A stretch of DNA of 64,000 nt, from the sequence record OL631484.1. One strand, given 5' to 3'. The notes under the pieces were generated by a model. It worked only from the letters and a program-made list of their open reading frames with translations, had not been told where the DNA came from and ran no database searches. The stretch is from Escherichia phage ECML-606-1. The stretch's first letter is position 1. The number at the start of each line of letters is the position of its first letter. Position numbers and translations under genes: made by a program. Of the stretch, positions 7,514-46,474 are shown piece by piece.

Positions 7514-7543
7514 AAAAAAGCCCTCATACGTTGGTATGAGGGC
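7514..7543 (-). terminator. intrinsic terminator (minus strand) between tail fiber A and holin
   Basis: On minus strand GCCCTCATAC-caac-GTATGAGGGC hairpin followed by TTTTTT that abuts the holin ATG. Confidence 0.5.
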
Positions 7544-7570: not shown

Positions 7571-9751
7571 TTATTTTTTGCCTTCGAGCGCCTCGAGACG
7601 GCGGGACAGCACCTGAATCGCAGCCAATGCGTCCAGCAGCAGGGCGTTACTATCCAGCTCTTTCATTTCGAACGGGGCACCATTGGCGTTGGGGTAATGG
7701 CGAGTTTTCACATACAACGGATCGACAGTTTCCGCTTGCTGTGCAATGACGCCACGACGCAACCGATGCTGCTCATCATTGTTATAAATGAAGCTCTTGA
7801 ATACCAGATCTTCAATTTTCGCCAATGATTCTTCGGGTGCATAATCATTAATATCGTGCTTTGCCCGTTCATCCGACGTCGCATTTTTCGTGAAGGTATA
7901 CGTTTCAGTGCCATCATTACGCATGTACTGAATATCGAAGGATTCAGAAACGAACAGCGCGGATCGTGAAGGGACTGAAGAAGCCCCCGTATTTAGATTC
8001 CAATCCCAGGTATTCGCAATGACTGCAACCGGGTGTGTGGCGTCCCCGTTTTTGGGGCAAAGGGCACCAAAAGAAATAAATCCACGATAGCCACCCCCAG
8101 CGGTACCTCCGCCACCGCCGACAATCGGGGCATAGGCTGAATACCCTGCGGCATTCCAAAAATTACCGGCATTGAAGGCAACCGATGACGGGGAGGCGTC
8201 AGTCCCGGTGCCAGCTGGTCGGTTATTGATTCTCAGCATCCCGCCGCTAAACGACATGCCATTCCCACGGACGTAATTTCCCTGCGCATCATACAGCGCA
8301 GTATTGAAATTCATTTGTGGATTCTCGTCGCCCCAGCGATAAGTGGTAATAACGCTCGTAGCCGCACGCGTAACGCCAGCTACGGTGTAGTTAGACTCTA
8401 CCGTACCACCATGAGCGATAAATCCAGTTTGCGGCTCTGCCGCATCGGCATTGATGACCGAAAAGGACGTCCCCGCAGCGATAAAAGAACCGGAGGCGCG
8501 GATAATCCAGATGCCCAACGCCGCGTTGGGACGAATTTCGTTTGTTGCAAATCTCCCATATGCAGCGTTACTTTTTGATGCGTCGAGTGTCAGCGTGTTA
8601 GACGCAGCGGTTGCAGAAGATGGGGTAATAGCACCATAGGGGGCTGCCGCACCAGAAAAGAGCGCTGTACCCACGCCGTTGCCGGGGTTGAAAGCACCCG
8701 CGCCCGCTGTCGATACCCCGCCAGTGATGTTGGGGGCGGCGTTTTCAATAATGTTACCAACACCATTCCCGAACAAGCGCCCTGAACTCCGCAAAAACAG
8801 ACCTTGTGGCGTCCAGCGCTGAGCGGGGTCATTCCACTGACTGTTTAAATCTGGGATGCGGAAAGTGGTCGAGCCATCACCCGGAGAATACATTCCTCGG
8901 TTGTTCCACTCCGCTCCGGGAACACCGCTGTTTTGCCAAGCCGCATCACTTGCAGCGGAGACAAGGATCCCAGCGTTTACCGCCGCCCACAGATCCGCCG
9001 TACTTGGGTCGGTACGACTGGCCAGCTGACCATCGGCAGCAATATAGCCTGCCGGGAGTTTCGCACGCGAGCCATTAAACCATTCGACCGCACCGATGAA
9101 GTTATTCATCACGCCATTCATGGATGCCCCGCCAGCGCCGCCAGAAGCCGCACGTAGCTGTTTCAGGGTTACGGCGTCATAATCACCAGCGGCATCGCCG
9201 CCTAAGCGCAGAGGCCCGCTGAGCGCGTTTAATGAGGTAATGTCATTGTTCGCACCAGATGCAGCCAGCCCGGTGATCGCCCCGGTCTTCCCGTTGACGC
9301 TGGTCACGTTGGTGCTGGTCAGCTCACGCCAGTTGCTCAGTACGCTCGGCGGCATCTGGGTGAGGATGAAGGTTTTACCCAGATCCTCACGGATAGCGAT
9401 ATCGCCGCGCTCACATTGCAGGCCCAGCATTGAAGCCTCGTTAGGCACCGGGAAGGTATCGATCACAGCGATAGACGGCATCAGTGAGCCGTCAATTTTC
9501 CCATCCGGGCCAGTTTGCACTACCGTAGACGGCAGGTTAGCTTTATTCAGCTTGCCGTTTGCGTCCAGCTTGGCGATGACATCGGACAGCATATCATCGG
9601 CAATCTTCCCGGTTGTCTGGTCGCGCGTAACGACCAGCACATCCAGCAGGTTTAACGTGTCGCGCAGGCGCTCCACGTCATCTTGAAGGAAGTTGTCAGT
9701 GTACGGCAGTAAAAGCCCCAGACGGGGCGTTTTCTGGTCTACTAAAGCCAT
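7571..9751 (-). CDS. tail fiber protein A with C-terminal intramolecular chaperone (peptidase S74-like) domain
   Basis: N-terminal TPRLGL..PY anchor motif, GDYDAVTLKQL collar motif, Gly-rich beta regions, GIWIIRASG motif, C-terminal SDERAKHDI...LEALEGKK resembling the autocleaving S74 chaperone domain. Confidence 0.7.
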   Translation of the reverse strand: MALVDQKTPRLGLLLPYTDNFLQDDVERLRDTLNLLDVLVVTRDQTTGKIADDMLSDVIAKLDANGKLNKANLPSTVVQTGPDGKIDGSLMPSIAVIDTFPVPNEASMLGLQCERGDIAIREDLGKTFILTQMPPSVLSNWRELTSTNVTSVNGKTGAITGLAASGANNDITSLNALSGPLRLGGDAAGDYDAVTLKQLRAASGGAGGASMNGVMNNFIGAVEWFNGSRAKLPAGYIAADGQLASRTDPSTADLWAAVNAGILVSAASDAAWQNSGVPGAEWNNRGMYSPGDGSTTFRIPDLNSQWNDPAQRWTPQGLFLRSSGRLFGNGVGNIIENAAPNITGGVSTAGAGAFNPGNGVGTALFSGAAAPYGAITPSSATAASNTLTLDASKSNAAYGRFATNEIRPNAALGIWIIRASGSFIAAGTSFSVINADAAEPQTGFIAHGGTVESNYTVAGVTRAATSVITTYRWGDENPQMNFNTALYDAQGNYVRGNGMSFSGGMLRINNRPAGTGTDASPSSVAFNAGNFWNAAGYSAYAPIVGGGGGTAGGGYRGFISFGALCPKNGDATHPVAVIANTWDWNLNTGASSVPSRSALFVSESFDIQYMRNDGTETYTFTKNATSDERAKHDINDYAPEESLAKIEDLVFKSFIYNNDEQHRLRRGVIAQQAETVDPLYVKTRHYPNANGAPFEMKELDSNALLLDALAAIQVLSRRLEALEGKK

Positions 9752-11032: not shown

Positions 11033-11045
11033 TTAAAACTCCTTA

Positions 11046-15168: not shown

Positions 15169-16295
15169 GGCAGCACGATCCCTAAGGTGGAGATAGTCAC
15201 CTGATCATCGGAGGAGGTCAGCACCTCATTCTGTCCACAGGTGATGTTGGCGCTCATGGAAACCGTGACTTTTTCAATGCCAGCCACCTGCAATGCCGCC
15301 GATTTCACATCGTCCGGTCGCAGAATTTCCCCGGCTTGTACAGATCCCAGCAGGCTGTAATAGGCATTGCGGATAGATTGCTTGATCGCTGGCGTCAGGG
15401 TGTAGCCAGACTGCATCCCAACGAGGAAGGTCATCGGTACGACTCGCGCCGACATCGCGCCGACATCGGTACGCACGCCAGCAGCTGAGTAACCGGGGAT
15501 CCTCTCTCCGGTCGTGGGATCCTGATACCCGGTAATAATTTCCTGAGCGCGGGCCAACAGTGCCGGGCTCGGAGCGCCAAGGTTAGACCAGATGTAAAGA
15601 TGGTTATAGCCAAGCGTGTAGTCATAGCCGCGTCGGGTGACGAATTCCACCATCACGCCATTGGAGTCCCTGATCACCGCCGTAGTCAGCGCGTACATCA
15701 GGGATTCGTAGGTGCCACGGGAAAGGGATGCAATGTACGACGCAAAGCGCACCATGCGATCCGCTTCGGTCTCCGCATCGCTGCCCCCGGTGATCTCCGT
15801 GTTGGAGATCGTGAAGTCTGCCGGGGCGAAGAAAGGCGAGGCGTTAATCTCACCTACGGCAGCATTACCCTTAAAGCCCGGTGATAATGCCTGCACAGGC
15901 ACACGGATAGTCGCCTCGGTAATGGGCCATGTCATTTCACCGCTCGACGCGTACTGGCGTCCATCCTTCGCCGTGAACACGGTGCCCTTTGGGATGGTAA
16001 TAGGCTGAGTTAGCGGCTTATTCGTGGTTACAGTGACGAGGCCGGACGCATAAGTAGCGCCCAGCAGGACGAAATTAAACGAGCGATAAGTGGCGACCGG
16101 GATCGCCTCCAGTAGCCCGTTAAACATTTGGATGTAGAGCTCCTCGACCTCTTGGGCGGGAGCCTCAATCAGCGTTCGGGAAACAGAGCCCGGCTGGAGG
16201 TCAGTAATTTTAACGGTCGTGCCGCGCACATAGTTGAGCGCCCCGGCGACGATACTGACAAAGTTTTTGATCTGAAACATGCGCAGGCCCACCAT
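15165..16295 (-). CDS. baseplate J-like protein
   Basis: Size (about 376 aa) and N-terminal region resemble baseplate J (gp47/gpJ) family; position between spike and fiber genes. Confidence 0.55.
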   Translation of the reverse strand: MVGLRMFQIKNFVSIVAGALNYVRGTTVKITDLQPGSVSRTLIEAPAQEVEELYIQMFNGLLEAIPVATYRSFNFVLLGATYASGLVTVTTNKPLTQPITIPKGTVFTAKDGRQYASSGEMTWPITEATIRVPVQALSPGFKGNAAVGEINASPFFAPADFTISNTEITGGSDAETEADRMVRFASYIASLSRGTYESLMYALTTAVIRDSNGVMVEFVTRRGYDYTLGYNHLYIWSNLGAPSPALLARAQEIITGYQDPTTGERIPGYSAAGVRTDVGAMSARVVPMTFLVGMQSGYTLTPAIKQSIRNAYYSLLGSVQAGEILRPDDVKSAALQVAGIEKVTVSMSANITCGQNEVLTSSDDQVTISTLGIVLP

Positions 16296-28928: not shown

Positions 28929-30044
28929 TTAGAAAATCATGCTGCGCACGCCATGGATAGCAGCCTGCAAGCCACCATTCCCGCTTTTCTCCGGCCCGTC
29001 GATGATGCGATCGATCTGGTCTTGATACTTGCTCAGATCGACGCTCATGGACTCGCTCAGGCCATCGGCGCTGATAGAGCCGGACTGCGGCAGGAAAGTG
29101 TCAGTGATGATCTTCGTCACCGCCAGTTTCATGATGGCGTCGATGAGATCAGGGTACTGGGTAGCGGCGTCCACCAGCCCGGCTGTGTAGTCGAGGTGAA
29201 CCATCTGCGGGATGCGGCTTTGCCACGTCAGCGCGGTGAAGCCAAGCACGGAGGTAGTCACCAGCGTGGCGTTAGTCACCGGAATGATCTCAACGTGCCC
29301 ATACTTCTGATCGATGCGCAGCCACTCCTGCGGGATATCAAAATACTGGCCCCCGGCAGACGGCATGATGAAGCGCAGACGCTGCACGTTCACCACCGGA
29401 TGATGACGCGTGACAAAGTAGCCCCACTTGTCGCGGTCGAACATGGTCGGCTCATAGTCCTGCGGCGTGTCTTTTACCCACGGCTCACCGTTCAGCTCAG
29501 CGATCTGGTCATCGGTCGGAGTGCTTTGGAATACCCGCGTCGGGACGAGGAACACGCGTAGACGGCGAGAGATTTCGGCCTCGGCGGCAATCAGTTTGCG
29601 CCAGATATAATCATCGGACACTTTCATATCGCGCAGGGCACCCGCTGACGCTGCCATAAGCTGATCCTCGCGCAGCTGCGGGATCACCAGCTCTTTGATA
29701 AACAGCTGCGACCGGGTGAGCTCAAATGGCTCCTTAATCTCAGCCGGGAACATGGCCCGACCGACCGGGAAGCCGGACACGCACAGGATCACGTCATTGC
29801 GCGTGGCGAATTCAGCCTGGTAAGGATCGGTCGTCCCGTCGATAACGATGACGATGGCACCATTTTTCAGGTTGGTACCCGTAGCAGTCAGGTCAACAGG
29901 CGTTTGCTTGTTGGCGATCAGCTGGCCCTGCTTGGTAATCAGCGCCCACGTCAGGGACTCCCCGCCAGTCAGCGCGATGGGTTTCCCGTCTTTTTTCAGC
30001 TCTACAATGACCGTGCTGACGGTATTGCGTTCAATGGTAATCAT
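28929..30044 (-). CDS. head-tail connector/neck-region structural protein (unknown)
   Basis: 371-aa ORF with RBS GGAG; downstream of capsid-associated genes. Confidence 0.35.
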   Translation of the reverse strand: MITIERNTVSTVIVELKKDGKPIALTGGESLTWALITKQGQLIANKQTPVDLTATGTNLKNGAIVIVIDGTTDPYQAEFATRNDVILCVSGFPVGRAMFPAEIKEPFELTRSQLFIKELVIPQLREDQLMAASAGALRDMKVSDDYIWRKLIAAEAEISRRLRVFLVPTRVFQSTPTDDQIAELNGEPWVKDTPQDYEPTMFDRDKWGYFVTRHHPVVNVQRLRFIMPSAGGQYFDIPQEWLRIDQKYGHVEIIPVTNATLVTTSVLGFTALTWQSRIPQMVHLDYTAGLVDAATQYPDLIDAIMKLAVTKIITDTFLPQSGSISADGLSESMSVDLSKYQDQIDRIIDGPEKSGNGGLQAAIHGVRSMIF

Positions 30045-31275: not shown

Positions 31276-32808
31276 TTATTCGCCAGTATGCGGACGCCAT
31301 TTTGCCTGAGTAGGCAGAATGTTTTTGATGTAGCCATGGTGTTTCGGCTTGGTAATACGCAGATAACCAAACAGGAACTGGAACCATGACATTACAGGCA
31401 TCCCGCCTACACCGAATGGCAGAGGGATCTTGGTCATCGGTTGGAACTGACGCCAGCCGATTGCATCCGCGCCAGCGCCAAGGTTCAGCATTGGTACACA
31501 GATGGTGCCCGGCAGAGTGCGGTTGTCGTCGTGGAACTTGGTCTTACCACCAGCGGAGCTAGAGGTATCAATTTTCACGTAACCGACCAGACGCATATCG
31601 CGCAGGGTGTCCAGATCATCAGCAGCTTTCGCCACGTCCTGACGACCACGATAGATGGCGAAGCCGCCGCAATCAGTGGATGCCGGGTTGGTGATGGACA
31701 GCACGATTTCTTCGCCAGAGGCAACAGTAACCTGATCCACGATCACCGCTTCGGACAGGCCAGCGCCGGAGGTGCTGATACCTGCGATAGCGTAGACGTA
31801 CTTACCAGCACGTTTGCCAGTGAAGCGAGCCGCGCCGTTGGTAGCCGCTGCGCCAGTTGTCGCGCCCGGTTTCAGTGCGGAGTTTTTCGCCGCCAGATCC
31901 GGGTTGGTCAGCTGGAACACATGCACCATCGGGTTGGTCTCGTCATGGATAAAGGTATCCATGTGAGTTTTCAGGATGCCAGTAGTCAGGCGGATCCCGT
32001 TAACATGACCACCGATAGTTGGTGTGTTCTGGCCTTCTGGCATCCAGCGGAATGCTGGATCTAAGCCCATGTTCAGATCGTTCTGAACAGAGTTAGGCAG
32101 GAAGATATCGGTTGACTGGCCCCAGTTGCCGTAGGAGTTAACTTCTACGTTAATCTGAGACATCGGCTCAACGCTGTTCAGCGCGGTACCGTTCAGGTCA
32201 ACGATGTGCTCCGGTGCCATTTTCCCCGCAGCCACTTCTTTGTCGATCTGGGTAAAGATACCGTCAAACTGCGTACTAACAACGTCAGCGTTACCATGAT
32301 AAAGCAGGTAGTTGGCGTCGGTCAGCAGTTGCAGTGCGCCGTTACGTTCTTCGACCGCAATCGGCTCAGCGATGTTTTTACCGATGTTCAGGACATAGCC
32401 GACCTGACGCAGAGACATCAGGAATTTGACCAGACCTACTTCACGGCTGTATTCGCCCTGTGCGGCACGTACAACGCCCATCTGGGTGTTGGTAGAACCA
32501 CCAAGGAAACCACCGACAGATGACTGGCGGCTGTATTCGTCAACGATGTTGATCGCGTTGGACTGCTGCAACATGTTGAACAGCGTAAAGTGCTTGTTCT
32601 CCTGAATCGTGGTCTTCATCGCAGTATCAAGAGACTGCACGCCTAACGCGCCGCCGCCCTGCAATTTGCTCACGTCAGTCTGATAGTCCGAAGCCTGAAG
32701 CGCTTTGGTCAGCTCCTCAAACTGGGCCATATTACCGCCCAGAGAGCCGCCAAGAGCAGCTGCGCCGCCCGGCAATGCGTTCTGGAACAGTTGGGCGATG
32801 TTTTGCAT
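31276..32808 (-). CDS. major capsid protein
   Basis: 510 aa, strong RBS AGGAG, position after scaffold and before a strong terminator; N-terminal segment shared with upstream 294-aa protein. Confidence 0.65.
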   Translation of the reverse strand: MQNIAQLFQNALPGGAAALGGSLGGNMAQFEELTKALQASDYQTDVSKLQGGGALGVQSLDTAMKTTIQENKHFTLFNMLQQSNAINIVDEYSRQSSVGGFLGGSTNTQMGVVRAAQGEYSREVGLVKFLMSLRQVGYVLNIGKNIAEPIAVEERNGALQLLTDANYLLYHGNADVVSTQFDGIFTQIDKEVAAGKMAPEHIVDLNGTALNSVEPMSQINVEVNSYGNWGQSTDIFLPNSVQNDLNMGLDPAFRWMPEGQNTPTIGGHVNGIRLTTGILKTHMDTFIHDETNPMVHVFQLTNPDLAAKNSALKPGATTGAAATNGAARFTGKRAGKYVYAIAGISTSGAGLSEAVIVDQVTVASGEEIVLSITNPASTDCGGFAIYRGRQDVAKAADDLDTLRDMRLVGYVKIDTSSSAGGKTKFHDDNRTLPGTICVPMLNLGAGADAIGWRQFQPMTKIPLPFGVGGMPVMSWFQFLFGYLRITKPKHHGYIKNILPTQAKWRPHTGE

Positions 32809-35866: not shown

Positions 35867-37660
35867 TTACAGGTCGGGCAGACCAAACGATTTGTAGAGC
35901 CCTTCCTCGTCGAGGTTCTGCAATGTGTTATGCAGCTCATCGAATTTTTTCTTATTGTCGGCTTGCAGCTGCTCCTGCTCGGCCTGCTGCTGTGCAGCTG
36001 CGTCGGCGTCGTCAGGGTTGGCAGGATCAGCGCCCAGCTCCTCGCCCGGCTGCTGTAGCTCGGCCTGCTGCGCCATCTGCTCGGCCTGAATATCAGCGTT
36101 GACCTTAGCCATATAAGGCTGCATCGAAACGCTGTTAAGCGGGGAGTTGGCCCAGTCTTCTTTGATTTCTTCCCAGTTGCGAGCGCGGCGTGCTTCGTTG
36201 ACGGTAAGGAGCGTTTTCTCCTCGTCCCACGCCTGCTTCGGATCCTTCTCATCCAGACCTGTCCAGCGGAACACGTACTTATCTGAGAAGTCGGAAATGA
36301 TGTAATCGGTGAATAAGTCCTCAAAGTGCGACAGCAGCGGTCGCAGGCCCTTATCCTTCGAGTTGATCAGCTTCTCCTCCGTGTCACTGCCGGACAGCGA
36401 ACTGGTACCAGCAGTGAAGGATTCGAAGTTGATCTCGTCCGGGGCGATGCCATAAATAGCGCAGATGATCGCGGTTAAGAACGTCATCCATTTGGCAAAC
36501 ATGATCTCGTTAACGTCTACGCCAAAGTTTTCAAATTTCGCCGTGGATTCCGAAGTTTTGGAAACCATGACGGGCAATGTCCATGCGTTATTGATGCCCT
36601 TCACCATGCTATTCCAGTACCGCTTAAAGGAGTTGAGATCCTCGGTAGAATAGTCGCCGGAGAGATGGAGCAGACCTTTCGGGATGGCGTTCGAGTCGAA
36701 ATACTTCTGGTTGTACGTCATGGCGTTCAGGAAGCCCGTGACGGTGTTTACCAGCAGCTCAGTTTCGCTCATCCCGTAACCTCCGTTCAGCACATCGGTG
36801 CGGGTGTTGCGCGGAACATAGATCAGGTCGTTGTAGGTGTAAGCGGTGCGGATGTTCCCCTGCACCACCTGTAAAGCAAAAATCTCATCATCGCCCTTGT
36901 AGCCGTCCTCAGTACAGAGGCGGATCGTGGCACCATCGACGGCATAAAGCCCGTCCATGCCTAGCGAGCGGTTTTTCTTGAATTCGGTCTCAATCGGCGC
37001 GGAGTCCATCACCAGCGAGTCGCGCACCAGCTTGCTCATGAAGCCTGAGAAGTTATCGCGCTTGAGGCGAGCACGCACGCGGGGGTTACTCTCCCAGCCG
37101 CAGTTTTGCATGAACATTTGCAGCGCGTTGATGGAGTCCTGCTCAGGCTTCGCCAGCCGCTGTGAGCCATTCTGCTCTTTCAAGCGAATCTGGAAGCCGG
37201 GGCCCACGCCTTTCTCACTGGCGCGGCAGAAGCGTTTGATCTGGCGGATGCGGGTCATCACCACCGCCGACAGGATTGGCGTCTTGTCCACCATGTAGCG
37301 CATGGCATCAAAGCCAAAGTTTGTCGGACGCTCATACCAGTCTCCCAGAATCTGCACCTGACGGTCATCCAGCCAGACAGACTGCATACCTTCTTTCTTG
37401 CCCTCGCGGACAGCCTGAGAAGGGTAATCGACCAGTGTATTTTTCTGGAGGGACTTGTAAAATTCCTGATCAGCATATGACTGGGCAATATGCTGAATCA
37501 GCGGAGCCAGATCCGGCACGCTGGAAGGCATTGCAGCTTTCTGCGCTTGCGCCATCGCATCCTGCTGTTCGTCGGCAGGCGCGGCAGGGTTGTGCGCGGT
37601 TTGGATGGCGTTGTCAGACATACGGTTAACCTTTGCAAAGTAGTTCGCAGAGAGTGACAT
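35867..37660 (-). CDS. portal protein
   Basis: About 600 aa, located between terminase and MuF-like gene, acidic C-terminal tail; track start TTG 37678 lies inside the conserved GTCGTGATG motif so ATG 37660 or 37621 is more likely. Confidence 0.7.
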   Translation of the reverse strand: MSLSANYFAKVNRMSDNAIQTAHNPAAPADEQQDAMAQAQKAAMPSSVPDLAPLIQHIAQSYADQEFYKSLQKNTLVDYPSQAVREGKKEGMQSVWLDDRQVQILGDWYERPTNFGFDAMRYMVDKTPILSAVVMTRIRQIKRFCRASEKGVGPGFQIRLKEQNGSQRLAKPEQDSINALQMFMQNCGWESNPRVRARLKRDNFSGFMSKLVRDSLVMDSAPIETEFKKNRSLGMDGLYAVDGATIRLCTEDGYKGDDEIFALQVVQGNIRTAYTYNDLIYVPRNTRTDVLNGGYGMSETELLVNTVTGFLNAMTYNQKYFDSNAIPKGLLHLSGDYSTEDLNSFKRYWNSMVKGINNAWTLPVMVSKTSESTAKFENFGVDVNEIMFAKWMTFLTAIICAIYGIAPDEINFESFTAGTSSLSGSDTEEKLINSKDKGLRPLLSHFEDLFTDYIISDFSDKYVFRWTGLDEKDPKQAWDEEKTLLTVNEARRARNWEEIKEDWANSPLNSVSMQPYMAKVNADIQAEQMAQQAELQQPGEELGADPANPDDADAAAQQQAEQEQLQADNKKKFDELHNTLQNLDEEGLYKSFGLPDL

Positions 37661-37696
37661 CACGACATCACGACGCAAAATAATTTAAATACCCTC

Positions 37697-38466: not shown

Positions 38467-38542
38467 GATTCTGTAGCTACAGCGGTAGAGCGGCGCACTG
38501 TTAATGCGCGGGTCGCTGGTTCGAATCCAGCCAGAATCGCCA
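38467..38542 (+). tRNA. tRNA-Asn (anticodon GTT)
   Basis: 76 nt cloverleaf: acceptor GATTCTG/CAGAATC, D-arm with GG, anticodon stem GCGCA/TGCGC with loop CTGTTAA, T-arm GCTGG-TTCGAAT-CCAGC, discriminator G and encoded CCA; close match to enterobacterial tRNA-Asn. Confidence 0.85.
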
Positions 38543-39267: not shown

Positions 39268-41883
39268 TTAATCGTCACCTTTCGAAATGAAGCCGGAGCA
39301 GCCAATATCCTCCGGCTTCACCTGCATCATGATCTCATGGCAGGATCTGGTCTCCGGGTCGTAGTTCACACAGCGCCCGCAAACATCCCCGCGATACTTC
39401 ACGTTGTTCACCTCATCCATGTAGCTCACCAGCGTCTGATCGACGCCGATATCCAGCGGGCTCAGTCGCTCGATCTTCACCTGCGGGGCATCCGGCAGAA
39501 TAAACGTACTGGTGCCATGGGCGCGACTCCATGCGACATCGCACAGCAGGTTTGCGTAGGAGAAGTGGGGATCGATGCCGATTTTCTTCACGCTGCGCTT
39601 GTACTGGTTCGTTTCCTCGTCCTTCTCAGCCACCAGCGCCGTTTTGGTGAAGTGCGTGAACATTACCGGGGCCACGGCTTCCACGCGCGTGACGCCCTTC
39701 TCACGAATCTCCTGCACCAACCCCTGAGGGTCTGGGATGAGGCAGATTGGCTCGTCGGCAGTGAAGCGGGCCATTGAGACCTGCATACACTTATACTGGT
39801 CAATGCGGACGGTGTAGCGATCCTGTTCGTTCTCGTCGGTGCGCACATCGGACTTGTCCAGCTTCATGCTGTCATTCCACTGGATCATGCCATCCGCCAC
39901 GGTGCCGAAGCTGTTACAGATGAATACCCGGCCTTTGTGACGGTTGGCGAAGCGCTTGGCGTCGTTGTAGTTCGGGTTGATTTCCACCACGCAGCAAGCC
40001 ACGCCGTACTGGTTCATCAGCTCGCTACAGCGGGCAAACGGATCCTCGCTGTAAATCATTTCGATGTGGACAATTGCTTGGTGGCCGGAGGGCAGTCGCT
40101 CCTTGATAACCACCACGTTAAACTGGCCCATCTGGTCAATACCCATGTAGCAGTTATCCGCGCGGGACTTCCACTGCACGCCAAAACGCAGGCCATGCTT
40201 AACGCAATTCGCCAGGTGTTCCAGCGTTACCGGAACCAGCGACGGATCGAGGAACGGCTTGCCCAGCTTACGGTTATAGAAGTTTTTCATATCCGTAGCG
40301 TTGTTGAAGGCGGAAATAATCTCGCCGGGGCTGATTGTCGGTGACAGGAACTGCGGGAAGTGCGCCGACCGGATGCACATTTCCCCTTCCTCATTCTCCG
40401 GCGCATCCGGGATCCATTCCCCGCGCTGCGTGTCCTCAATCCATCCTCCGCAGCTGTAGCAGACATATCGGTGGCGTCTGGTGTCCGGGTCGTACTTAAT
40501 GCACTGCGGGAAATAGTCATCCAGCGGTTTCTTTTCGAGGCAGTGCGGGCATTCGGTATGGAAACGGTACTGGGATCCCAGCTTGTACCAGTGGTGGATA
40601 TCGGAGTCGGGCCAGTTGGCGGTGGAGCCCATCAGGCTGTAACGGATCGGGGATGCAGATAGACGCTCGCGCGTTTTCTCCATCTGCTCCAGTGACATTT
40701 CCTGCACCTCATCGAAGCTCAGGACATCCATCGGGATGGATTCGGTAGTCGCGCGGCCCGATGTCCAGCTGAATACAAACATCGCCTCACCGATGCGACG
40801 GGTACGCACGTTACCCTCACCTTTCTTGCGACCGCCGCCTTTCTCATCGTCCTGCACCATCAGCGCATGTACCTCAGGTACGGTGCGCACAATCGGCATG
40901 AAGCGCTCGGAGGACTTGATCCCCGCCAGCGCGGCATCCGGCAAGAACATGCCGATAGTCATCGGCTGGAAGCGCAGGCCAAGGTAAATAACAGCGAGCA
41001 TTTCCATGACGGTAAAGCCCACCTGCGCACACTTCATCAGCACCAGCGTTTTGCGGTATGCCTCCTCGACGGTGCTGGGGATCTGGTCATAAATCCACGC
41101 CATCGCCGGGCGGTTGTCCAGCTTGAACGGGCGACCATCCACTTTGAGGCCCGTTTCGCCCAGCCGGATGCACCACTCCAGAAAGGTCTCGTTTGGCTTG
41201 AGGATTTTCTGCGAGGCGGTCAGGACAAAGGTCGTATCGAGGAATTCAGCATCGTAGCGCTGGCGCTTCTCATCCCCGGTCGTGTTGTCCATTTTCTCCA
41301 GGAATGCCGCGTCGAGATTATGGCGGTTGGTCTCGGTCGGCACGCGGCGTCGGAACCAGTCAGGATCCAGCTCGGCCTCCATCCACAGGCGATAAAAGTC
41401 GTGATTCTTCCCGTAGGCACCGGACAGGAACCATGCACTGCCGTGGTACTCGCGCAGGCACTCAGCCAGCGTGTCACCCCAGATCTGCATGAAGTTGTAA
41501 ATCTCGCGCACGTCATCAATGATCATCAGGCCATACTGCCCATTAACCTCTTTCAGGCTGTCAGCCGCGTAAAGGTCAATGTACTGGCCCGATAGCAGCG
41601 TGATGCGCCTGCTGGTTGAGCTCTTGATGAGGGGATCGATGGCCTGTACGATCCGCGTGCGAACCTCCATAAGGTCTTTGTACGTAGCGCTCATCCACAT
41701 CGCCGGGGCAGGGTTATTCATGATGCCCTGTTTCCCAGCCACCAGCGCCTCTATGCCAAGCGTTGTTTTTCCTGCCTTCTCGCCCATGGCAATAACGTTA
41801 AAACGCGCCGCACGGTCGATACAGACCTGCAACGCGTCATTGAGAATGGGCAGCTTAATTTTAACGGTCTTTTGGCGTGCCAT
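39268..41883 (-). CDS. terminase large subunit, GpA (lambda A)-like, with about 250-aa N-terminal P-loop extension
   Basis: Internal KCAQVGFT (cf. lambda gpA KSARVGYS), zinc-finger-like FHTECPHC...YVCYSCGG, C-terminal nuclease-like region; additional N-terminal Walker A GEKAGKTT and Walker B-like LMIIDD. Confidence 0.75.
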   Translation of the reverse strand: MARQKTVKIKLPILNDALQVCIDRAARFNVIAMGEKAGKTTLGIEALVAGKQGIMNNPAPAMWMSATYKDLMEVRTRIVQAIDPLIKSSTSRRITLLSGQYIDLYAADSLKEVNGQYGLMIIDDVREIYNFMQIWGDTLAECLREYHGSAWFLSGAYGKNHDFYRLWMEAELDPDWFRRRVPTETNRHNLDAAFLEKMDNTTGDEKRQRYDAEFLDTTFVLTASQKILKPNETFLEWCIRLGETGLKVDGRPFKLDNRPAMAWIYDQIPSTVEEAYRKTLVLMKCAQVGFTVMEMLAVIYLGLRFQPMTIGMFLPDAALAGIKSSERFMPIVRTVPEVHALMVQDDEKGGGRKKGEGNVRTRRIGEAMFVFSWTSGRATTESIPMDVLSFDEVQEMSLEQMEKTRERLSASPIRYSLMGSTANWPDSDIHHWYKLGSQYRFHTECPHCLEKKPLDDYFPQCIKYDPDTRRHRYVCYSCGGWIEDTQRGEWIPDAPENEEGEMCIRSAHFPQFLSPTISPGEIISAFNNATDMKNFYNRKLGKPFLDPSLVPVTLEHLANCVKHGLRFGVQWKSRADNCYMGIDQMGQFNVVVIKERLPSGHQAIVHIEMIYSEDPFARCSELMNQYGVACCVVEINPNYNDAKRFANRHKGRVFICNSFGTVADGMIQWNDSMKLDKSDVRTDENEQDRYTVRIDQYKCMQVSMARFTADEPICLIPDPQGLVQEIREKGVTRVEAVAPVMFTHFTKTALVAEKDEETNQYKRSVKKIGIDPHFSYANLLCDVAWSRAHGTSTFILPDAPQVKIERLSPLDIGVDQTLVSYMDEVNNVKYRGDVCGRCVNYDPETRSCHEIMMQVKPEDIGCSGFISKGDD

Positions 41884-41895
41884 TGTGAATCCTTT

Positions 41896-41918
41896 GGTAA
41901 AAGGGCCCCGAAGGGCCC
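41896..41918 (-). terminator. intrinsic terminator between tail fiber B and terminase
   Basis: GGGCCC-ttcg-GGGCCC hairpin followed on minus strand by UUUUACC. Confidence 0.5.
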
Positions 41919-41928
41919 TGAATGGGGG

Positions 41929-44778
41929 TTATGCTTTGAGTCGGTCTACTTCATCCGCCAGCGTTTTGACGGATTCGATCAGGTCTGCGATGAGCGCGTT
42001 TTGAGACACGTTCAGCACCCCGTTAACCTCATAGGTATAGATCGGGTCAATCTTCTGGAGCTCCTGCGCGATGTAGCCACGGTCATGGCGTCCGTCATGC
42101 TTCCAGTCGAATTCCCGCGCAACAATCTCACGGATGCGAGACAGTGCGCCCGGCTTGGCATCCTCCGCATTATCTTTCAGCGCGATATCGGAGGCATTAA
42201 ACTGAACTGTGCCCAAAGGCCCGGTAATATCACCGTTAGCTTGGAAAGCCCAGTCTTTATTTACCCCTCCTGAGTTTTGCTGGAGGGTGATTTGGTAAGC
42301 GAGAAGATCCGTACTGGCTCCTCGGACAGCGCCAGTCTGAACAAAGCCATTACACCATTGGTAGCTTGTCCATCCCGTCCAACCATTCGGGATGCTGCTC
42401 TTTCTGTTATTGAGCTCGACTCTGTTTTGCTCACCTGCTCGCACCCCACAACCACCACCCGCAGCGGTATGCAGATCATTACAGGTGACGAGCGCGGAGA
42501 TATCCAGCGCGTTTCCTGTCCATGGCTTGATGTTATTCGCCAGCAAATAACGTGGCACCGTCAAGTCACCATTGGTATCAAAGATGAAGTTTTGGAAGGC
42601 CCCGGAAACCTCATTTTTTGCCTGAATGACAGCCATGCCCACGATAGATGATTCAGTGGTGGCATATCTTCCGCTGGCTACCAGCGAGGCCGAAAGTTTA
42701 TCCGCGCCACCGATGGTATAGCGGGAATAGACCATCCCGCCCAGCACGCTCGTATTAGCACCCGGCGCGGTAGCATCACCAGAGATCACGCTGAAATTGG
42801 TGTTCGCTGACTGGAAGGCACCAGAGGCTCGGATGATCCAGATGCCCACAACCGAGTTCGGGCGCACCTCAGTACCACGTCCATACGCGGGGTTAGATCG
42901 GCTAGCATTAAATTTAAACCCGTTATAGGTTCCCGCTACAACTGGACCGGGTTGAATATTGTTAGGGAATGAGTCCCCTTGATAAACGGCGCTTTGAGGG
43001 TCGTTAACCGCCGCGAATGCACCAGCACCTGAGTTGCCGATAAGACCCGTAATATTCGGCGCGGCGTTGTATTTAATCGCGCCTACGCCGCCGATCTCGC
43101 TAGTAAAATGACCACCACCATCACCACGCAGGAAGTTAGCCCCCGGAGTAAATCCATCAGCGTATGCGCCATTAAGATCAGGCACACGGAATTTCCCTGT
43201 ACTTGATTGCTTAACATATGCGCCTCGGTTTTCACCTTTCCGCAGACCGTCAGCGCTACCGCTGTTTTGCCAAAGGGCTTCCGTTACCGTGACAACCCTG
43301 CCAGAATTCACCAAAGCATACAGATCTGCGGTTGCAGGATCTGTTTGGCTGCATTCCTGACCGTCGGCGGGGATATATCCAACGGGTAAGCTGGCACGCG
43401 ATCCGTTCCACCATTCCACCGCGCCAACAAAGTTATTAAGCACGCCATTCATCGTTGGGCCAGAGCCGCCTGAGTTTGCTTTCAGCTGGCGCAGCGTAAC
43501 TGCGTCATAATCTCCTGCTGCGTCGGCATTCAGCGTAAGCGGGCCTTGCAGACCTGTCAGCTGGGTGATGTCACTATTAACACCAGACTGTGCCCCTTTT
43601 CTCCAGTCGGTGAATACGCTGCCATCATAGCTGCGCGAAGCAATACGCCCACTTTTAGCGATGTAAACCTGAGTGACGCCACCAGATGCGCCGAACGGGA
43701 ATACAGTCAGCTGACCGGGCTCATCAAACGGGAAGTTGTTGGCTGCAACAGCACCAGCAGCACTGGTCAGAGATACCACGCCATAATGCGCCGGGAGAAT
43801 GCGGTCATTCAGGTTGATAACCGTTGAAATGCCATCCATCTGGGCGACGGCTTTCACTTCGGATGCCGCAGGCGGGTTATCGCTGGTATACATCCGGCGT
43901 GGTGCGCTCCAGTTGGTCGTCGTGCGCGTGATGCGATAAACCCACGTTGGCGTCGCGCCCTCAGACGCGAAGATGAAGACAGTCGATGTGCGATCCTCGT
44001 TGATGCCCTCACAGTGGATGCGCCACGCTGTAGCACCAGCGCCAGTGATGGTCGCCGGGAAGCCATTGGCAGTAATCGCATCGGCGGCCTTCACGCGCAT
44101 AGTTTCACCTACGCGCCAAACGTGCGAGGTGATCGTGTCTCCGGTGGCAGCGAAGTCGAAGTAAGGCAGTTTGATGCCCATAAGTCCAGCATAACCCGCT
44201 GTGAGCACCGCCCCGTCGCGGGTGATGGTTGGACTGGCGATCTCCTGATCGGTCAGGGAGCGGGCGATATTCAGCGCTACGCCTCCGGTCGGCTGAGCAC
44301 CGCTGCTGTGTGTCCAGTCGATTGTTGCACCGTTACCCGCGATCAGTAGGCCAGTCCATTTGCGCGGTGCAGTGCTCGGTGCGATGTTAAACCAGATCTC
44401 ATAGGTGTCGGCTGCGACCTCCACCAGCTTACCGCCAAGGATGGTCGCTGAATTCGCGCCAAGATTGGTCTGAGCAGTAACGGTGATGCGTGCCGGATCA
44501 CCGACAGTGGTCACAGAGCCGTCGCCTGTCTGCATGACAATGTTGGCGAAGCCAGTACCAGTCACCACCATCAGCGTAATGGCAATTTTGCCCTGCGCGA
44601 GATTGGAGATCTTGCCCATCTTCTGCCAGCTATCTGACGTGATATCCCAGTCAGTGAGCATCACGGCATTTTTATCCAGCATGGTCAGAGCATCGGTCAG
44701 CTTGCCCACATCAATTTTTAACGGGTTGGTCAGGTATGGGACAGGAAGCCCAAGCCGGGGAGTAGTTTTGTCCACCAT
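41929..44778 (-). CDS. tail fiber protein B (mosaic paralog of fiber A) with C-terminal S74-like intramolecular chaperone domain
   Basis: Shares TPRLGL..PY N-terminus, GDYDAVTLRQL...MNGVLNNFVGAVEWWNGSRA block and GIWIIRASG motif with fiber A; C-terminal SDIALKDN...DRLKA chaperone-like end. Confidence 0.7.
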   Translation of the reverse strand: MVDKTTPRLGLPVPYLTNPLKIDVGKLTDALTMLDKNAVMLTDWDITSDSWQKMGKISNLAQGKIAITLMVVTGTGFANIVMQTGDGSVTTVGDPARITVTAQTNLGANSATILGGKLVEVAADTYEIWFNIAPSTAPRKWTGLLIAGNGATIDWTHSSGAQPTGGVALNIARSLTDQEIASPTITRDGAVLTAGYAGLMGIKLPYFDFAATGDTITSHVWRVGETMRVKAADAITANGFPATITGAGATAWRIHCEGINEDRTSTVFIFASEGATPTWVYRITRTTTNWSAPRRMYTSDNPPAASEVKAVAQMDGISTVINLNDRILPAHYGVVSLTSAAGAVAANNFPFDEPGQLTVFPFGASGGVTQVYIAKSGRIASRSYDGSVFTDWRKGAQSGVNSDITQLTGLQGPLTLNADAAGDYDAVTLRQLKANSGGSGPTMNGVLNNFVGAVEWWNGSRASLPVGYIPADGQECSQTDPATADLYALVNSGRVVTVTEALWQNSGSADGLRKGENRGAYVKQSSTGKFRVPDLNGAYADGFTPGANFLRGDGGGHFTSEIGGVGAIKYNAAPNITGLIGNSGAGAFAAVNDPQSAVYQGDSFPNNIQPGPVVAGTYNGFKFNASRSNPAYGRGTEVRPNSVVGIWIIRASGAFQSANTNFSVISGDATAPGANTSVLGGMVYSRYTIGGADKLSASLVASGRYATTESSIVGMAVIQAKNEVSGAFQNFIFDTNGDLTVPRYLLANNIKPWTGNALDISALVTCNDLHTAAGGGCGVRAGEQNRVELNNRKSSIPNGWTGWTSYQWCNGFVQTGAVRGASTDLLAYQITLQQNSGGVNKDWAFQANGDITGPLGTVQFNASDIALKDNAEDAKPGALSRIREIVAREFDWKHDGRHDRGYIAQELQKIDPIYTYEVNGVLNVSQNALIADLIESVKTLADEVDRLKA

Positions 44779-44834: not shown

Positions 44835-44858
44835 TAAAAAGCCCGGACAGTACCGGGC
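44835..44858 (-). terminator. intrinsic terminator upstream of tail fiber B
   Basis: GCCCGG-tactgt-CCGGGC hairpin followed on minus strand by U-run. Confidence 0.5.
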
Positions 44859-44866
44859 TGGAAGGT

Positions 44867-45610: not shown

Positions 45611-46474
45611 TCAATCTTTTTTCTTACCTAAATACGCGTCAAGCACCATTTGGTCGGGCTTCATGTTCATTAGCTCGCGCAGCTTGTTTTTTGGTACCAG
45701 CTGGACGGCCTGCGTTTCCCAGCCCATCGCTACCGGGGAACCACCGACGCGCTTCGCCAGATACATGCGAGAAACAGACGTGGTGCGCTCAAAGTCACCC
45801 AGCACGCCAGTGATCTCGATCTGTAGCCCGGACTCCTCCCATGTCTCTTTGATGGCGTTCTGCTGGAGCGTGAGCCCCGGCTCAGTGCCACCCTTCGGGA
45901 AAGTGTTCTGGTAGCCGCCGAAAGCGTTGGTCGGGCTGATAATCCACACGCGACCGTCAGGCTCCTCAATGATGACGCCGGACGCTGGACGCTTCCCGGC
46001 TGGTACCATTAACGGCTGCTCGGTCATCTGTTTGGTGCCCTTCACAAAGGCCCAGCCCGCGTCGGTTTTCGGTGCGCCAGTCCACGGCGCGACCGGGACG
46101 CCATTCAGCTCCTGCGGTGCTGCACCATTAGGCGTGAAGGTGGCCACCTCGTTGCTCGCGGCCCACGTTGGCGCTTCGGTCGGTTTGCTCGGATGGTTAA
46201 CCACGACGCGGTTGCCCTTCTCACCCAGTCGCGGATGGTGGACAATCTTCGTCGGTAGTCCTTTGCTGGCGGTAGTCCTGTGCGTGCCATACGGCGTCGT
46301 GGGCAGCGCTGGCTTGCGGTAATAGGCTTTCTTGGCCTGAGGCTTCGCAGGCGCTTTGGGGGCCGCAGGCGCATCAGGTTTGGCTGCTGCCTTCCCGTTG
46401 TCGTGCGGCTTCACCCATACGCCATCGCTCCGGCGATAGCCCTTCACCTGCGCTTTCAGGAAAAGTTTAGTCAT
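45611..46474 (-). CDS. Nudix hydrolase with basic Pro/Ala/Lys-rich N-terminal extension
   Basis: Nudix box GGTEPGLTLQQNAIKETWEESGL (G-x5-E-x7-REUxEExGU pattern); start placed at ATG 46474 with RBS GGAAGG rather than track start 46588. Confidence 0.7.
   Translation of the reverse strand: MTKLFLKAQVKGYRRSDGVWVKPHDNGKAAAKPDAPAAPKAPAKPQAKKAYYRKPALPTTPYGTHRTTASKGLPTKIVHHPRLGEKGNRVVVNHPSKPTEAPTWAASNEVATFTPNGAAPQELNGVPVAPWTGAPKTDAGWAFVKGTKQMTEQPLMVPAGKRPASGVIIEEPDGRVWIISPTNAFGGYQNTFPKGGTEPGLTLQQNAIKETWEESGLQIEITGVLGDFERTTSVSRMYLAKRVGGSPVAMGWETQAVQLVPKNKLRELMNMKPDQMVLDAYLGKKKD

What the first reader, a model, noticed from the sequence alone, without database searches (positions are those of the whole stretch)
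41929..44778. Two mosaic paralogous tail fibers at separate loci, both with S74-type autocleaving chaperone ends
Fiber A (7571-9751) and fiber B (41929-44778) share the TPRLGL..PY N-terminal anchor, a roughly 70-aa highly similar block (GDYDAVTL(K/R)QL...MNGV.NNF.GAVEW.NGSRA.LP.GYI.ADGQ) and GIWIIRASG, yet differ in inserted domains. Each ends with an SD..(R/L)K-initiated C-terminal domain resembling intramolecular chaperones. Fiber B is displaced to the far side of the terminase. This suggests dual receptor-binding proteins and a recombination-driven host-range module.
Basis: partly seen in the sequence, partly recalled or inferred. Interest (0 to 1): 0.6.

Follow-up and report, generated by a model that had tools for sequence, protein, structure and literature searches.

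The report
Two swappable tail fibres, self-cleaving chaperones
A roughly 95-kb contractile-tailed phage carries two related host-recognition fibre genes at opposite ends of its structural gene block, each built from exchangeable modules and ending in a self-cleaving folding domain; this is a clear but ordinary example of how phages change host range.

Summary
Fibre A (7571-9751, 726 aa) and fibre B (41929-44778, 949 aa) are intact minus-strand genes. They share a 40-aa N-terminal anchor (50% identity) and a 310-aa shaft block (50%; its first 100 aa 70%). That block is homologous to the L-shaped tail fibre LtfA of T5-like phage DT57C.

Both end in a Pfam Peptidase_S74 domain scoring above the curated cut-off. 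The Ser-x4-Lys dyad is S626/K631 in A and S863/K868 in B. Fibre B's predicted C-terminus matches solved intramolecular-chaperone structures.

The window is a myovirus about 97% identical in DNA to Enterobacter phage phiT5282EW. In both fibre genes the similarity stops inside the conserved junction block and resumes at the gene end, so both distal cassettes were replaced.

About 60 B-type and 60 A-type homologues on 85-96-kb contigs show conserved N-termini with about 40 different tips. The position of fibre B directly upstream of the terminase is ancestral, not a displacement. It recurs in Yersinia phage fHe-Yen8-01, where both fibres are annotated as particle-associated, and in 99-kb Salmonella contigs.

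Verdict: a new member of a known kind. Cleavage, receptors and attachment sites remain untested.

The parts
41929..44778 (-). Fibre B gene (949 aa plus stop)
   Evidence: ORF list. PHROG 6921 'tail fiber protein' E 7e-98. About 60 full-length orthologues on 85-96-kb contigs.
44659..44778 (-). Fibre B N-terminal anchor, aa 1-40 (MVDKTTPRLGLPVPY...)
   Evidence: 50% identical to A3-42. Nearly invariant among B orthologues.
43594..44658 (-). Fibre B proximal region, aa 41-395; specific to the B locus, predicted beta-rich knob domains
43300..43593 (-). Fibre B conserved junction block, aa 396-493 (..GDYDAVTLRQL..MNGVLNNFVGAVEW..GYIPADGQ..)
   Evidence: 70% identical to A163-261. DNA identity to phiT5282EW decays from about 80% to background across aa ~395-445.
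42664..43593 (-). Fibre B shaft ('mid') module, aa 396-705, T5-LTF-like
   Evidence: Matches DT57C LtfA (8hqz_d) residues 556-828, E 2e-34. 50% identical to A163-473. 61-64% identical to A-locus proteins of other phages.
42193..42663 (-). Fibre B distal tip, aa 706-862 (presumed receptor-binding part)
   Evidence: No similarity to fibre A's tip. Beta-strands at pLDDT 76-88 in the aa 785-860 part of the model. One of about 42 tip types in the clade.
41932..42192 (-). Fibre B S74 intramolecular chaperone domain, aa 863-949; catalytic S863 and K868
   Evidence: PF13884, 34 bits against a 22-bit cut-off. S, D, L and K invariant in an 18-sequence alignment. pLDDT above 90. Foldseek hits: MyRF ICA 7dc3 (E 9e-4, probability 1.0) and endoNF chaperone 3gw6 (E 0.13). 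Sequence match to the C-terminus of tail fibre 8jov_1, E 1e-4.
7571..9751 (-). Fibre A gene (726 aa plus stop)
   Evidence: ORF list. PHROG 6921 E 4e-116. About 64 clade orthologues.
9626..9751 (-). Fibre A N-terminal anchor, aa 1-42
   Evidence: Shared with fibre B. 100% identical to the phiT5282EW orthologue.
9266..9625 (-). Fibre A proximal segment, aa 43-162; specific to the A locus
   Evidence: PHROGs 5207, 23595 and 26941 (tail or minor tail proteins) match aa 82-165. 78-100% conserved in clade A-type proteins.
8333..9265 (-). Fibre A shaft ('mid') module, aa 163-473; the first ~100 aa form the conserved junction block
   Evidence: Matches DT57C LtfA 554-853, E 4e-37. The phiT5282EW DNA identity breakpoint lies at aa ~200-240.
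7877..8332 (-). Fibre A distal tip, aa 474-625
   Evidence: Found at 95% identity only in P0077, together with a 99%-identical chaperone. Whole distal parts are 95-98% identical in P0086, P0077 and P0087. Unrelated to fibre B's tip.
7574..7876 (-). Fibre A S74 intramolecular chaperone domain, aa 626-726; catalytic S626 and K631
   Evidence: PF13884, 48 bits. Matches the C-terminal domain of DT57C LtfA (957-1067), E 1.9e-8. SDERAK motif.
44840..44859 (-). Terminator-like hairpin 60 nt upstream of the fibre B start codon
   Evidence: AGCCCGG-tactgt-CCGGGCT followed by TTTTATTT.
41903..41918 (-). GC hairpin (GGGCCC-ttcg-GGGCCC followed by TTTT) between the fibre B stop and the TerL start; similarity to phiT5282EW resumes here
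   Evidence: Read directly from the sequence. The DNA match resumes at 41917.
7520..7543 (-). Strong terminator-like hairpin between the fibre A stop and the holin gene
   Evidence: 10-bp stem with 6 GC pairs, followed by TTTTTT.

Best explanation
The window is about two thirds of a ~95-kb contractile-tailed phage, a close relative of Enterobacter phage phiT5282EW. It encodes two trimeric receptor-binding tail fibres built on one plan: a short N-terminal anchor, a locus-specific proximal part, a T5-LTF-like shaft, a variable tip and a C-terminal S74 intramolecular chaperone.

Inferred mechanism. Three chains associate through the C-terminal chaperone. This nucleates folding of the trimeric tip. 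The Ser/Lys dyad (S626/K631 in A, S863/K868 in B) then cuts the chain at the serine and releases the chaperone. The mature fibres would be about 625 aa (A) and about 862 aa (B). The shared 40-aa N-terminus docks both onto the tail, presumably the baseplate. The different tips would bind different surface receptors; in the homologous T5-like fibres these are O-antigens.

Shown by comparison. The anchor and proximal parts are inherited vertically with the genome. The shaft-tip-chaperone cassette is replaced by recombination, with the 5' crossover falling in the conserved ~100-aa junction block and the 3' crossover at the gene end. The two-locus layout is ancestral to this phage family: fibre B sits directly upstream of the large terminase, and fibre A is the last structural gene before the lysis genes.
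For: Identity as fibres:
- PHROG tail-fibre families match at E 1e-98 and 1e-116.
- The shaft blocks match DT57C LtfA (8hqz_d) at E 2e-34 and 4e-37.

Myovirus context:
- Sheath, baseplate wedge, capsid, portal, TerL, holin and endolysin are all present.

S74 domains:
- Pfam scores exceed the gathering cut-off in both proteins.
- S-D-x-x-L-K is invariant in the 18-sequence alignment.
- The +5 Ser-to-Lys spacing equals endoNF S911/K916 and MyRF S587/K592 (PMC8326128).
- The fibre B model has pLDDT above 90 in this domain and ends in a long helix. Its best PDB matches are MyRF ICA and the endoNF chaperone.

Cassette exchange:
- Flanking DNA is 96-97% identical to phiT5282EW and the capsid protein 99.8% identical. 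There is no similarity over 43440-41918 or 9028-7609.
- B N-termini are 85-100% identical where shafts are 38-82% identical.
- There are 42 tip clusters at 50% identity among 123 proteins. Three shaft clusters at 70% identity mix A- and B-locus proteins.
- 10 of 124 shaft nearest neighbours cross loci, at up to 78% identity.

Conserved synteny.

Functional precedent: DT57C and DT571/2 LtfA and LtfB both carry pfam13884 and recognise different O-antigens (PMC4728585).
Against: - No experiment on this phage: cleavage, trimerisation, virion incorporation and receptors are inferred.
- The structure models are monomers of trimeric proteins with moderate confidence (mean pLDDT 64 and 72). The tip region aa 740-785 is below 50.
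- The fold match for the S74 domain is modest (TM about 0.5 on the target; 3gw6 only E 0.13). It was obtained for fibre B only.
- Some relatives' fibres lack S74: both fHe-Yen8-01 fibres, and P0017/P0047 end in PF25670 instead. The chaperone is therefore a property of the cassette, not of the locus.
- Whole tips were not found shared between the A and B loci at 50% identity or more. Cross-locus exchange is documented only for the shaft.
- The attachment site of either fibre is unknown.
Confidence: 0.8

Rival explanations
1. A and B are not two independent fibres. They form one branched fibre, with one protein docking on the other, as LtfB does on LtfA in DT57C, or as gp63.1 does on gp66 in G7C.
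For: Branched adhesins are common where a phage has two receptor-binding proteins (PMC4728585). Fibre B has a long extra proximal region (aa 41-395) with knob-like domains that could carry a docking site.
Against: Both proteins keep the same N-terminal 40-aa motif. This suggests the same kind of docking partner rather than one docking on the other. In the 99-kb Salmonella relatives both fibres have the full A-type N-terminal architecture.
Confidence: 0.2
2. Fibre B is not a baseplate fibre. It is a neck, collar or head-proximal fibre (whisker-like), as its gene position next to the terminase and far from the baseplate genes might suggest. The neck appendages of phi29 and GA-1 also use this chaperone type.
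For: The gene lies 29.5 kb from the baseplate genes, directly upstream of TerL and flanked by hairpins. GA-1 gp12 neck appendages belong to the same chaperone family (PMC8326128).
Against: It shares its N-terminal anchor with fibre A, which is encoded at the end of the baseplate module. The shaft is homologous to lateral tail fibres. Structural neighbours are tail fibres and tailspikes. Gene position is weak evidence for position in the virion.
Confidence: 0.1
3. One of the two genes is a redundant or decaying duplicate with no role in infection.
For: T5 lateral fibres are dispensable in the laboratory (PMC4728585).
Against: Both genes are intact. Both are conserved at the same loci in phiT5282EW, fHe-Yen8-01 and the Salmonella group. 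At least 17 contigs appear to carry both, judged from matching contig lengths. Both loci show diversifying tips, and both proteins are annotated as particle-associated in fHe-Yen8-01.
Confidence: 0.03
4. The similarity between A and B results from recent intragenomic gene conversion or duplication, not from ancient paralogy plus horizontal cassette exchange.
For: In fHe-Yen8-01 the A and B shafts are each other's nearest neighbours (59-66% identity).
Against: In this window the DNA identity is only 67% over 274 nt and the longest exact shared word is 16 nt. Fibre B's shaft is closer to A-locus shafts of other phages (61-64%) than to its own genome's fibre A (50%). The genes are direct repeats 32 kb apart, so recombination between them would delete the structural genes in between.
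Confidence: 0.05

Closest known systems
LtfA and LtfB, the L-shaped lateral tail fibres of T5-like phages DT57C and DT571/2 (PDB 8HQZ chain d; PMC4728585, PMC10713586), and T5 pb1
   Same: The shaft block is homologous (LtfA 554-853; E 2e-34 and 4e-37). Both carry a C-terminal pfam13884 autocleaving chaperone; fibre A's matches LtfA 957-1067 at E 2e-8. In both systems one phage has two fibre proteins with different tips. Host-range switching by recombination in the distal part is documented for these phages.
   Different: T5-like phages are siphoviruses whose two ltf genes are adjacent and form one branched fibre. Here the phage is a myovirus, the two genes lie 32 kb apart, the N-terminal anchors are unrelated to LtfA's, and branching is unknown.
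Orthologous fibre pairs of Enterobacter phage phiT5282EW (PQ352032, genes 00009 and 00040) and Yersinia phage fHe-Yen8-01 (OR620963, genes 027 and 134)
   Same: Same two loci, same N-terminal modules (A 100% and 67%; B 93% and 42%) and same gene neighbours. Both fHe-Yen8-01 proteins are annotated as particle-associated.
   Different: The distal cassettes differ. phiT5282EW shares no DNA similarity beyond the junction block. The fHe-Yen8-01 fibres end without an S74 domain. phiT5282EW annotates both genes only as hypothetical proteins.
Tail fibres of phiEco32-like podoviruses (Kuravirus; phiEco32, MN05, ECBP2, EP335 gp13; PMC8217332)
   Same: 38-41% identity to fibre A over aa 152-725, covering shaft, tip type and S74 end.
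   Different: One fibre gene per genome, podovirus tails, and no match to the N-terminal ~150 aa of fibre A.
C-terminal intramolecular chaperone domain of endosialidase endoNF (PDB 3GW6) and the MyRF ICA domain (PDB 7DC3); MEROPS/Pfam S74
   Same: Pfam family membership, the Ser-x4-Lys dyad, a terminal long helix, and fold-level matches.
   Different: The upstream passenger is a fibre tip, not a sialidase beta-propeller with a triple beta-helix stalk. Cleavage has not been demonstrated here.
Roughly 99-kb contigs from Salmonella and E. coli assemblies (e.g. SRR5944107_3), a related group with a contractile-tail gene set
   Same: Same two-locus layout: one fibre directly upstream of an 877-aa TerL after a giant protein and a NUDIX protein, the other after the baseplate genes. 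The fibres are 41-42% identical to fibre A over their full length.
   Different: Both of their fibres have the A-type N-terminal architecture; none has fibre B's 355-aa proximal region. These contigs also carry a Rep_3 plasmid initiator and a YafQ-type toxin, suggesting a phage-plasmid lifestyle.

Membership tests
Peptidase S74 / C-terminal intramolecular chaperone domain (Pfam PF13884) | Profile-HMM score above Pfam's gathering cut-off (22 bits) | tested here: met
   A626-681 scores 48.0 bits (E 1.5e-12); B863-912 scores 34.2 bits (E 3.2e-8).
Peptidase S74 / C-terminal intramolecular chaperone domain (Pfam PF13884) | Catalytic Ser-Lys dyad with Lys five residues after Ser (endoNF S911/K916; MyRF S587/K592) | tested here: met
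   A has S626-D-E-R-A-K631 and B has S863-D-I-A-L-K868. S, D, L and K are invariant in an 18-sequence alignment. Reference residues come from PMC8326128.
Peptidase S74 / C-terminal intramolecular chaperone domain (Pfam PF13884) | Fold: small beta elements followed by a long C-terminal helix that forms the trimeric coiled coil; similar to 3GW6 and 7DC3 | tested here: met
   Tested for fibre B only. Model pLDDT exceeds 90 over aa ~880-949, with helix H237-259 of the fragment. Foldseek finds 7dc3 at E 9e-4, probability 1.0, TM 0.50-0.53 on the target, and 3gw6 at E 0.13. Fibre A was tested by sequence only: it matches the LtfA C-terminal domain at E 1.9e-8.
Peptidase S74 / C-terminal intramolecular chaperone domain (Pfam PF13884) | Autoproteolytic release of the domain after trimer folding | not testable with these tools
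   Needs SDS-PAGE or mass spectrometry of virions, or recombinant wild-type protein compared with Ser-to-Ala mutants.
T5-type L-shaped tail fibre (pb1 / LtfA) | Homology of the shaft region | tested here: met
   phmmer against 8hqz_d: B414-694 matches LtfA 556-828 (E 2e-34); A179-486 matches LtfA 554-853 (E 4e-37).
T5-type L-shaped tail fibre (pb1 / LtfA) | Homologous N-terminal attachment region (full-length orthology) | tested here: not met
   Nothing N-terminal of A179 or B414 aligns to LtfA. T5-like phages match only B aa 418-948 and A aa 180-723. Only modules are shared; the proteins are not LTF orthologues.
Phage tail collar domain (Pfam PF07484) | Score above the gathering cut-off (24 bits) | tested here: not met
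   Fibre A scores 15.2 bits (E 0.021) and fibre B has no hit. Some orthologues pass: P0015 at 33.7 bits and P0017 at 26.2 bits. The domain is probably present but divergent in the window proteins.
Branched two-protein fibre (LtfA/LtfB type) | One fibre protein docks on the other | not testable with these tools
   No multimer prediction was available. The shared N-terminal motif argues mildly against it.
Fibre diversified by a diversity-generating retroelement | Template/variable repeat pair near the 3' end of the gene, plus a reverse transcriptase | tested here: not met
   No direct repeats of 18 nt or more, other than chance-level 20-23-nt pairs, around either gene.

The most novel reading that the evidence does not exclude
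The two loci form a conserved two-slot receptor-binding system. It is shared by lytic Enterobacter and Yersinia myoviruses and by ~99-kb Rep_3-bearing phage-plasmid-like elements of Salmonella and E. coli. In this reading the ~100-aa junction block (..GDYDAVT..MNGV.NNF.GAVEW..ADGQ..) acts as a universal recombination joint. Through it, shaft-tip-chaperone cassettes move between the two slots and between phages of different tail types: T5-like siphoviruses, phiEco32-like podoviruses and these myoviruses. Fibre B's extra 355-aa proximal region would make it a longer fibre that contacts the cell first, so the two fibres would act in sequence rather than as alternatives.
Probability: 0.3. Interest if true: 0.45.

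Novelty: new member of a known kind. Interest (0 to 1): 0.3.

Why it matters
The phage group is barely described. Only two GenBank genomes exist, and one of them annotates both fibres merely as hypothetical proteins. Yet public assemblies hold dozens of 85-96-kb relatives.

The analysis maps the anchor, proximal part, junction, shaft, tip and chaperone of both fibres. It also places the natural crossover points within about 40-50 codons. This gives a practical recipe for retargeting these phages by cassette swapping, for example between this phage and phiT5282EW. It predicts the mature protein ends at residues 625 and 862.

Conceptually it adds one more case of well-known principles: mosaic tail fibres, dual receptor-binding proteins and S74 chaperones. 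It does not add a new principle.

Tried and rejected
- **Recent duplication or gene conversion between A and B:** rejected. DNA identity is 67% over 274 nt and the longest exact word is 16 nt.
- **Diversity-generating retroelement or repeat-based variation:** no meaningful repeats.
- **Structured RNAs around fibre B:** only the tRNA-Asn.
- **A third paralogue in the window:** none found by tblastn or motif scan.
- **Opposite-strand ORFs inside fibre B** (e.g. 41872-42273, 42277-42651, 44014-44349): treated as by-products of a GC-rich coding strand. They were not tested further.
- **Literature on fHe-Yen8-01 and phiT5282EW:** no paper in the library.
- **Enterobacterial plasmid relatives in PLSDB, searched with TerL:** none close. 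The only good hit is a Rhodovastum plasmid at 54% identity.
- **Whole tips shared between the A and B loci:** not found at 50% identity or more. The idea of one common tip pool for both loci is not supported by this sample; only shafts cross loci.
- **Pfam on the fibre B N-terminal region:** no family.
- **Unused tools:** The search of protein representatives and a third homology search were not needed.
Full report
**1. The observation**

Both open reading frames are present exactly as described. Fibre A is 7571-9751 and fibre B is 41929-44778, both on the minus strand, encoding 726 and 949 aa.

BLASTP of one against the other gives three significant segments:
- Shaft block: A163-473 vs B396-705, 50% identity, E about 1e-75.
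- N-terminus: A3-42 vs B1-40, 20/40 identical, E 2e-8.
- C-terminal domains: 26-28% identity, E 1.7e-8.

TPRLGL lies at A8 and B6, GDYDAVTL at A189 and B422, and GIWIIRASG at A413 and B645. SD(ERA)K starts at A626 and SD(IAL)K at B863.

The roughly 70-aa block is the best-conserved part of a longer homologous region. A187-240 vs B420-472 is 76% identical, and A163-261 vs B396-493 is 70%.

At the DNA level the two genes share only 67% identity over 274 nt, and no exact word longer than 16 nt. There is no third copy in the window.

**2. What the element is**

The window belongs to a phage with a contractile tail. PHROG profiles identify the following genes:

| Gene | Coordinates |
|---|---|
| Endolysin | 6486-7208 |
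| Holin | 7193-7513 |
| Baseplate wedge proteins | 13774-16295 |
| Transglycosylase-bearing tail protein | 20491-23271 |
| Tail sheath | 24377-26173 |
| Major capsid protein | 31276-32808 |
| Portal | 35867-37678 |
| Large terminase (871 aa) | 39268-41883 |

All lie on the minus strand. In transcription order the layout is fibre B, TerL, head genes, tail genes, baseplate genes, fibre A, then lysis genes.

Fibre B is flanked by a terminator-like hairpin 60 nt upstream (44859-44840) and a GC hairpin between its stop codon and the TerL start (41918-41903). Fibre A is followed by a strong terminator-like hairpin (7543-7520).

The capsid protein is 99.8% identical to that of Enterobacter phage phiT5282EW (95.5 kb). 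Yersinia phage fHe-Yen8-01 (92.5 kb) and Pseudomonas phage Dolphis are more distant relatives. No paper on either of the two close relatives is in the searchable library.

**3. Anatomy of the two proteins**

Both are tail fibres by profile: PHROG 6921 'tail fiber protein' matches at E 7e-98 and 4e-116.

*Shaft.* The only solved structure either full-length protein matches by sequence is chain d of 8HQZ. This is LtfA of the T5-like phage DT57C (PMC10713586). It matches B414-694 at E 2e-34 and A179-486 at E 4e-37.

- The phi11 receptor-binding protein.

In the viral structure library its named matches with E <= 1e-4 are all tail fibres or other tail proteins. Fibre B is therefore a genuine fibre along its whole length.

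*Tips.* A474-625 and B706-862 are unrelated to each other.

**4. The S74 ends**

Pfam PF13884 scores 48 bits for A and 34 bits for B, against a curated cut-off of 22.

In an alignment of 18 homologues of the fibre B distal part, the S, D, L and K of S-D-x-x-L-K are invariant. The Ser-to-Lys spacing of five equals the catalytic dyads S911/K916 of endosialidase endoNF and S587/K592 of MyRF (PMC8326128).

The model of B690-949 is confident in this domain (pLDDT above 90) and ends in a 23-residue helix. Its best PDB matches are the MyRF ICA domain (7dc3: E 9e-4, probability 1.0, TM 0.5 on the target) and the endoNF intramolecular chaperone (3gw6: E 0.13).

By sequence, fibre A's domain matches the C-terminal domain of LtfA (E 1.9e-8). 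Fibre B's matches the C-terminus of the tail fibre in 8jov (E 1e-4).

LtfA, LtfB and T5 pb1 are described as carrying the same autocleaving pfam13884 domain (PMC4728585).

Membership in the S74 family is therefore met on every sequence and fold criterion I could test. Cleavage itself cannot be tested here.

**5. Mosaicism and recombination**

*Comparison with phiT5282EW.* This is the clearest result. Flanking DNA is 96-97% identical to phiT5282EW on both sides of both genes. No similarity is detectable from 43440 to 41918 (B aa ~446 to the stop codon) or from 9028 to 7609 (A aa ~241-714).

Codon-window profiles show where identity falls:
- In A, identity drops from 100% to background between aa ~200 and 240.
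- In B, it drops from about 80% to background between aa ~395 and 445.

In both genes the drop lies inside the conserved junction block. The 3' boundaries are at the gene end. Both distal cassettes (shaft, tip and chaperone) have therefore been exchanged between two otherwise nearly identical genomes.

*The wider family.* Searches of the large protein collection returned two sets of relatives, mostly on 85-96-kb contigs:
- 63 B-type proteins.
- 64 A-type proteins of the same clade.

At least 17 contigs appear to carry one of each.

*Module conservation.*
- B N-termini stay 85-100% identical while the attached shafts range from 38 to 82%.
- Distal parts fall into 42 clusters at 50% identity among 123 proteins.
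- Fibre B's shaft is closer to shafts at the A locus of other phages (P0062-P0067, 61-64%) than to most B orthologues or to its own genome's fibre A (50%).
- Three shaft clusters at 70% identity mix A- and B-locus proteins, and 10 of 124 shaft nearest neighbours cross loci at up to 78%.
- Whole tips were not shared between the two loci at 50% identity or more.
- A-locus tips reach 85% identity to tips of a more distant phage group.
- P0077 shows the tip and chaperone moving together: N-terminus 78%, shaft 61%, tip 95% and chaperone 99% identical to fibre A.
- Not all cassettes end in S74. P0017 and P0047 end in PF25670, and both fHe-Yen8-01 fibres end in neither.

**6. The gene position**

Fibre B lies directly upstream of TerL with a 45-nt spacer. 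It follows a giant virion protein, a NUDIX protein and small ORFs. The same arrangement is found in four other places:
- phiT5282EW.
- fHe-Yen8-01.
- An 89.9-kb contig in an E. coli assembly.
- A more distant group of ~99-kb contigs from Salmonella assemblies.

In the last group the second fibre again sits at the end of the baseplate module, and both fibres have the A-type N-terminal architecture.

The two-locus layout is therefore old, and 'displaced' is not the right word. The most economical history is an ancient duplication, followed in the Enterobacter/Yersinia clade by replacement of the proximal segment of the TerL-side copy with the 355-aa region. This history is an inference.

**7. 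Mechanism**

*Shown here:* homology, domain order, presence of the catalytic residues, cassette boundaries and conserved synteny.

*Shown in a relative, by annotation only:* both fibres are particle-associated in fHe-Yen8-01.

*Inferred from the S74 family and T5-like fibres:*
- The chaperone drives trimer folding of the tip.
- Self-cleavage at S626 and S863 yields mature fibres of about 625 and 862 aa.
- The shared N-terminus docks on the tail.
- The tips bind different surface glycans, probably O-antigens, widening or partitioning host range.

Two things are unknown. One is whether the fibres attach independently or as a branched unit. The other is whether they act as alternatives or in sequence.

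**8. Comparison and verdict**

Everything here has close precedent:
- Dual receptor-binding proteins: DT57C LtfA/LtfB.
- S74 chaperones: endoNF, T5 pb1 and GA-1 gp12.
- Cassette exchange in tail fibre genes.

What is new is the instance. It is a poorly described myovirus clade with a conserved two-locus fibre system, unusually clean natural breakpoints, and module sharing with siphovirus and podovirus fibres.

I rate it a new member of a known kind, interest 0.3. Negative checks (repeats, RNA families, plasmid relatives) are.

Noticed in passing
window 46959-53732 (-): A 2257-aa ORF lies upstream of fibre B. Its fHe-Yen8-01 homologue is annotated 'ADP-ribosyltransferase toxin, phage particle associated protein'. 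The E. coli-contig homologue (2390 aa) has only a faint PF03496 ADPrib_exo_Tox hit. This may be a giant ejected virion protein carrying a toxin-like domain.
   Followed up: partly
window 45611-46588 (-): A 325-aa protein has a C-terminal NUDIX hydrolase domain (PHROGs 10313 and 1185). It is conserved between the giant protein and fibre B in all relatives examined.
   Followed up: partly
window 39268-41883 (-): The large terminase is unusually long at 871 aa. The canonical TerL profile covers aa 231-792. A separate N-terminal stretch (aa 25-222) matches part of another TerL family, PHROG 2. This could be an N-terminal extension or a fused domain.
   Followed up: no
L007 14489-15184 and L008 4557-4835 (contig SRR5944107_3, 99 kb, from a Salmonella sequencing run): The more distant relatives with the same two-fibre layout also encode a Rep_3 plasmid replication initiator and a YafQ-type toxin. 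This suggests that part of the family lives as phage-plasmids. No Rep_3 was looked for in the window, and PLSDB holds no close enterobacterial relative.
   Followed up: partly
window 38467-38542 (+): A tRNA-Asn (GTT) lies on the opposite strand between TerL and the portal gene. It is conserved in phiT5282EW.
   Followed up: yes
window 28929-30044 (-): A 371-aa ORF between the capsid and sheath genes matches PHROG 772 'tail fiber protein' (E 6e-26). It has neither the N-terminal anchor nor an S74 end. It might be a head or neck fibre or a decoration protein.
   Followed up: no
window 9761-13166 (-): Two large proteins (423 and 706 aa) lie immediately upstream of fibre A. They belong to PHROGs of unknown function (5986, 877, 358). 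In the Salmonella relatives the larger one is DUF4815. They are candidates for the baseplate proteins on which the fibres dock.
   Followed up: no
L002 and L003 (fHe-Yen8-01 genes 134 and 027): Within fHe-Yen8-01 the shafts of the two fibres are each other's closest relatives (59-66% identity). This differs from the window phage and hints at exchange between the two loci within that lineage.
   Followed up: partly
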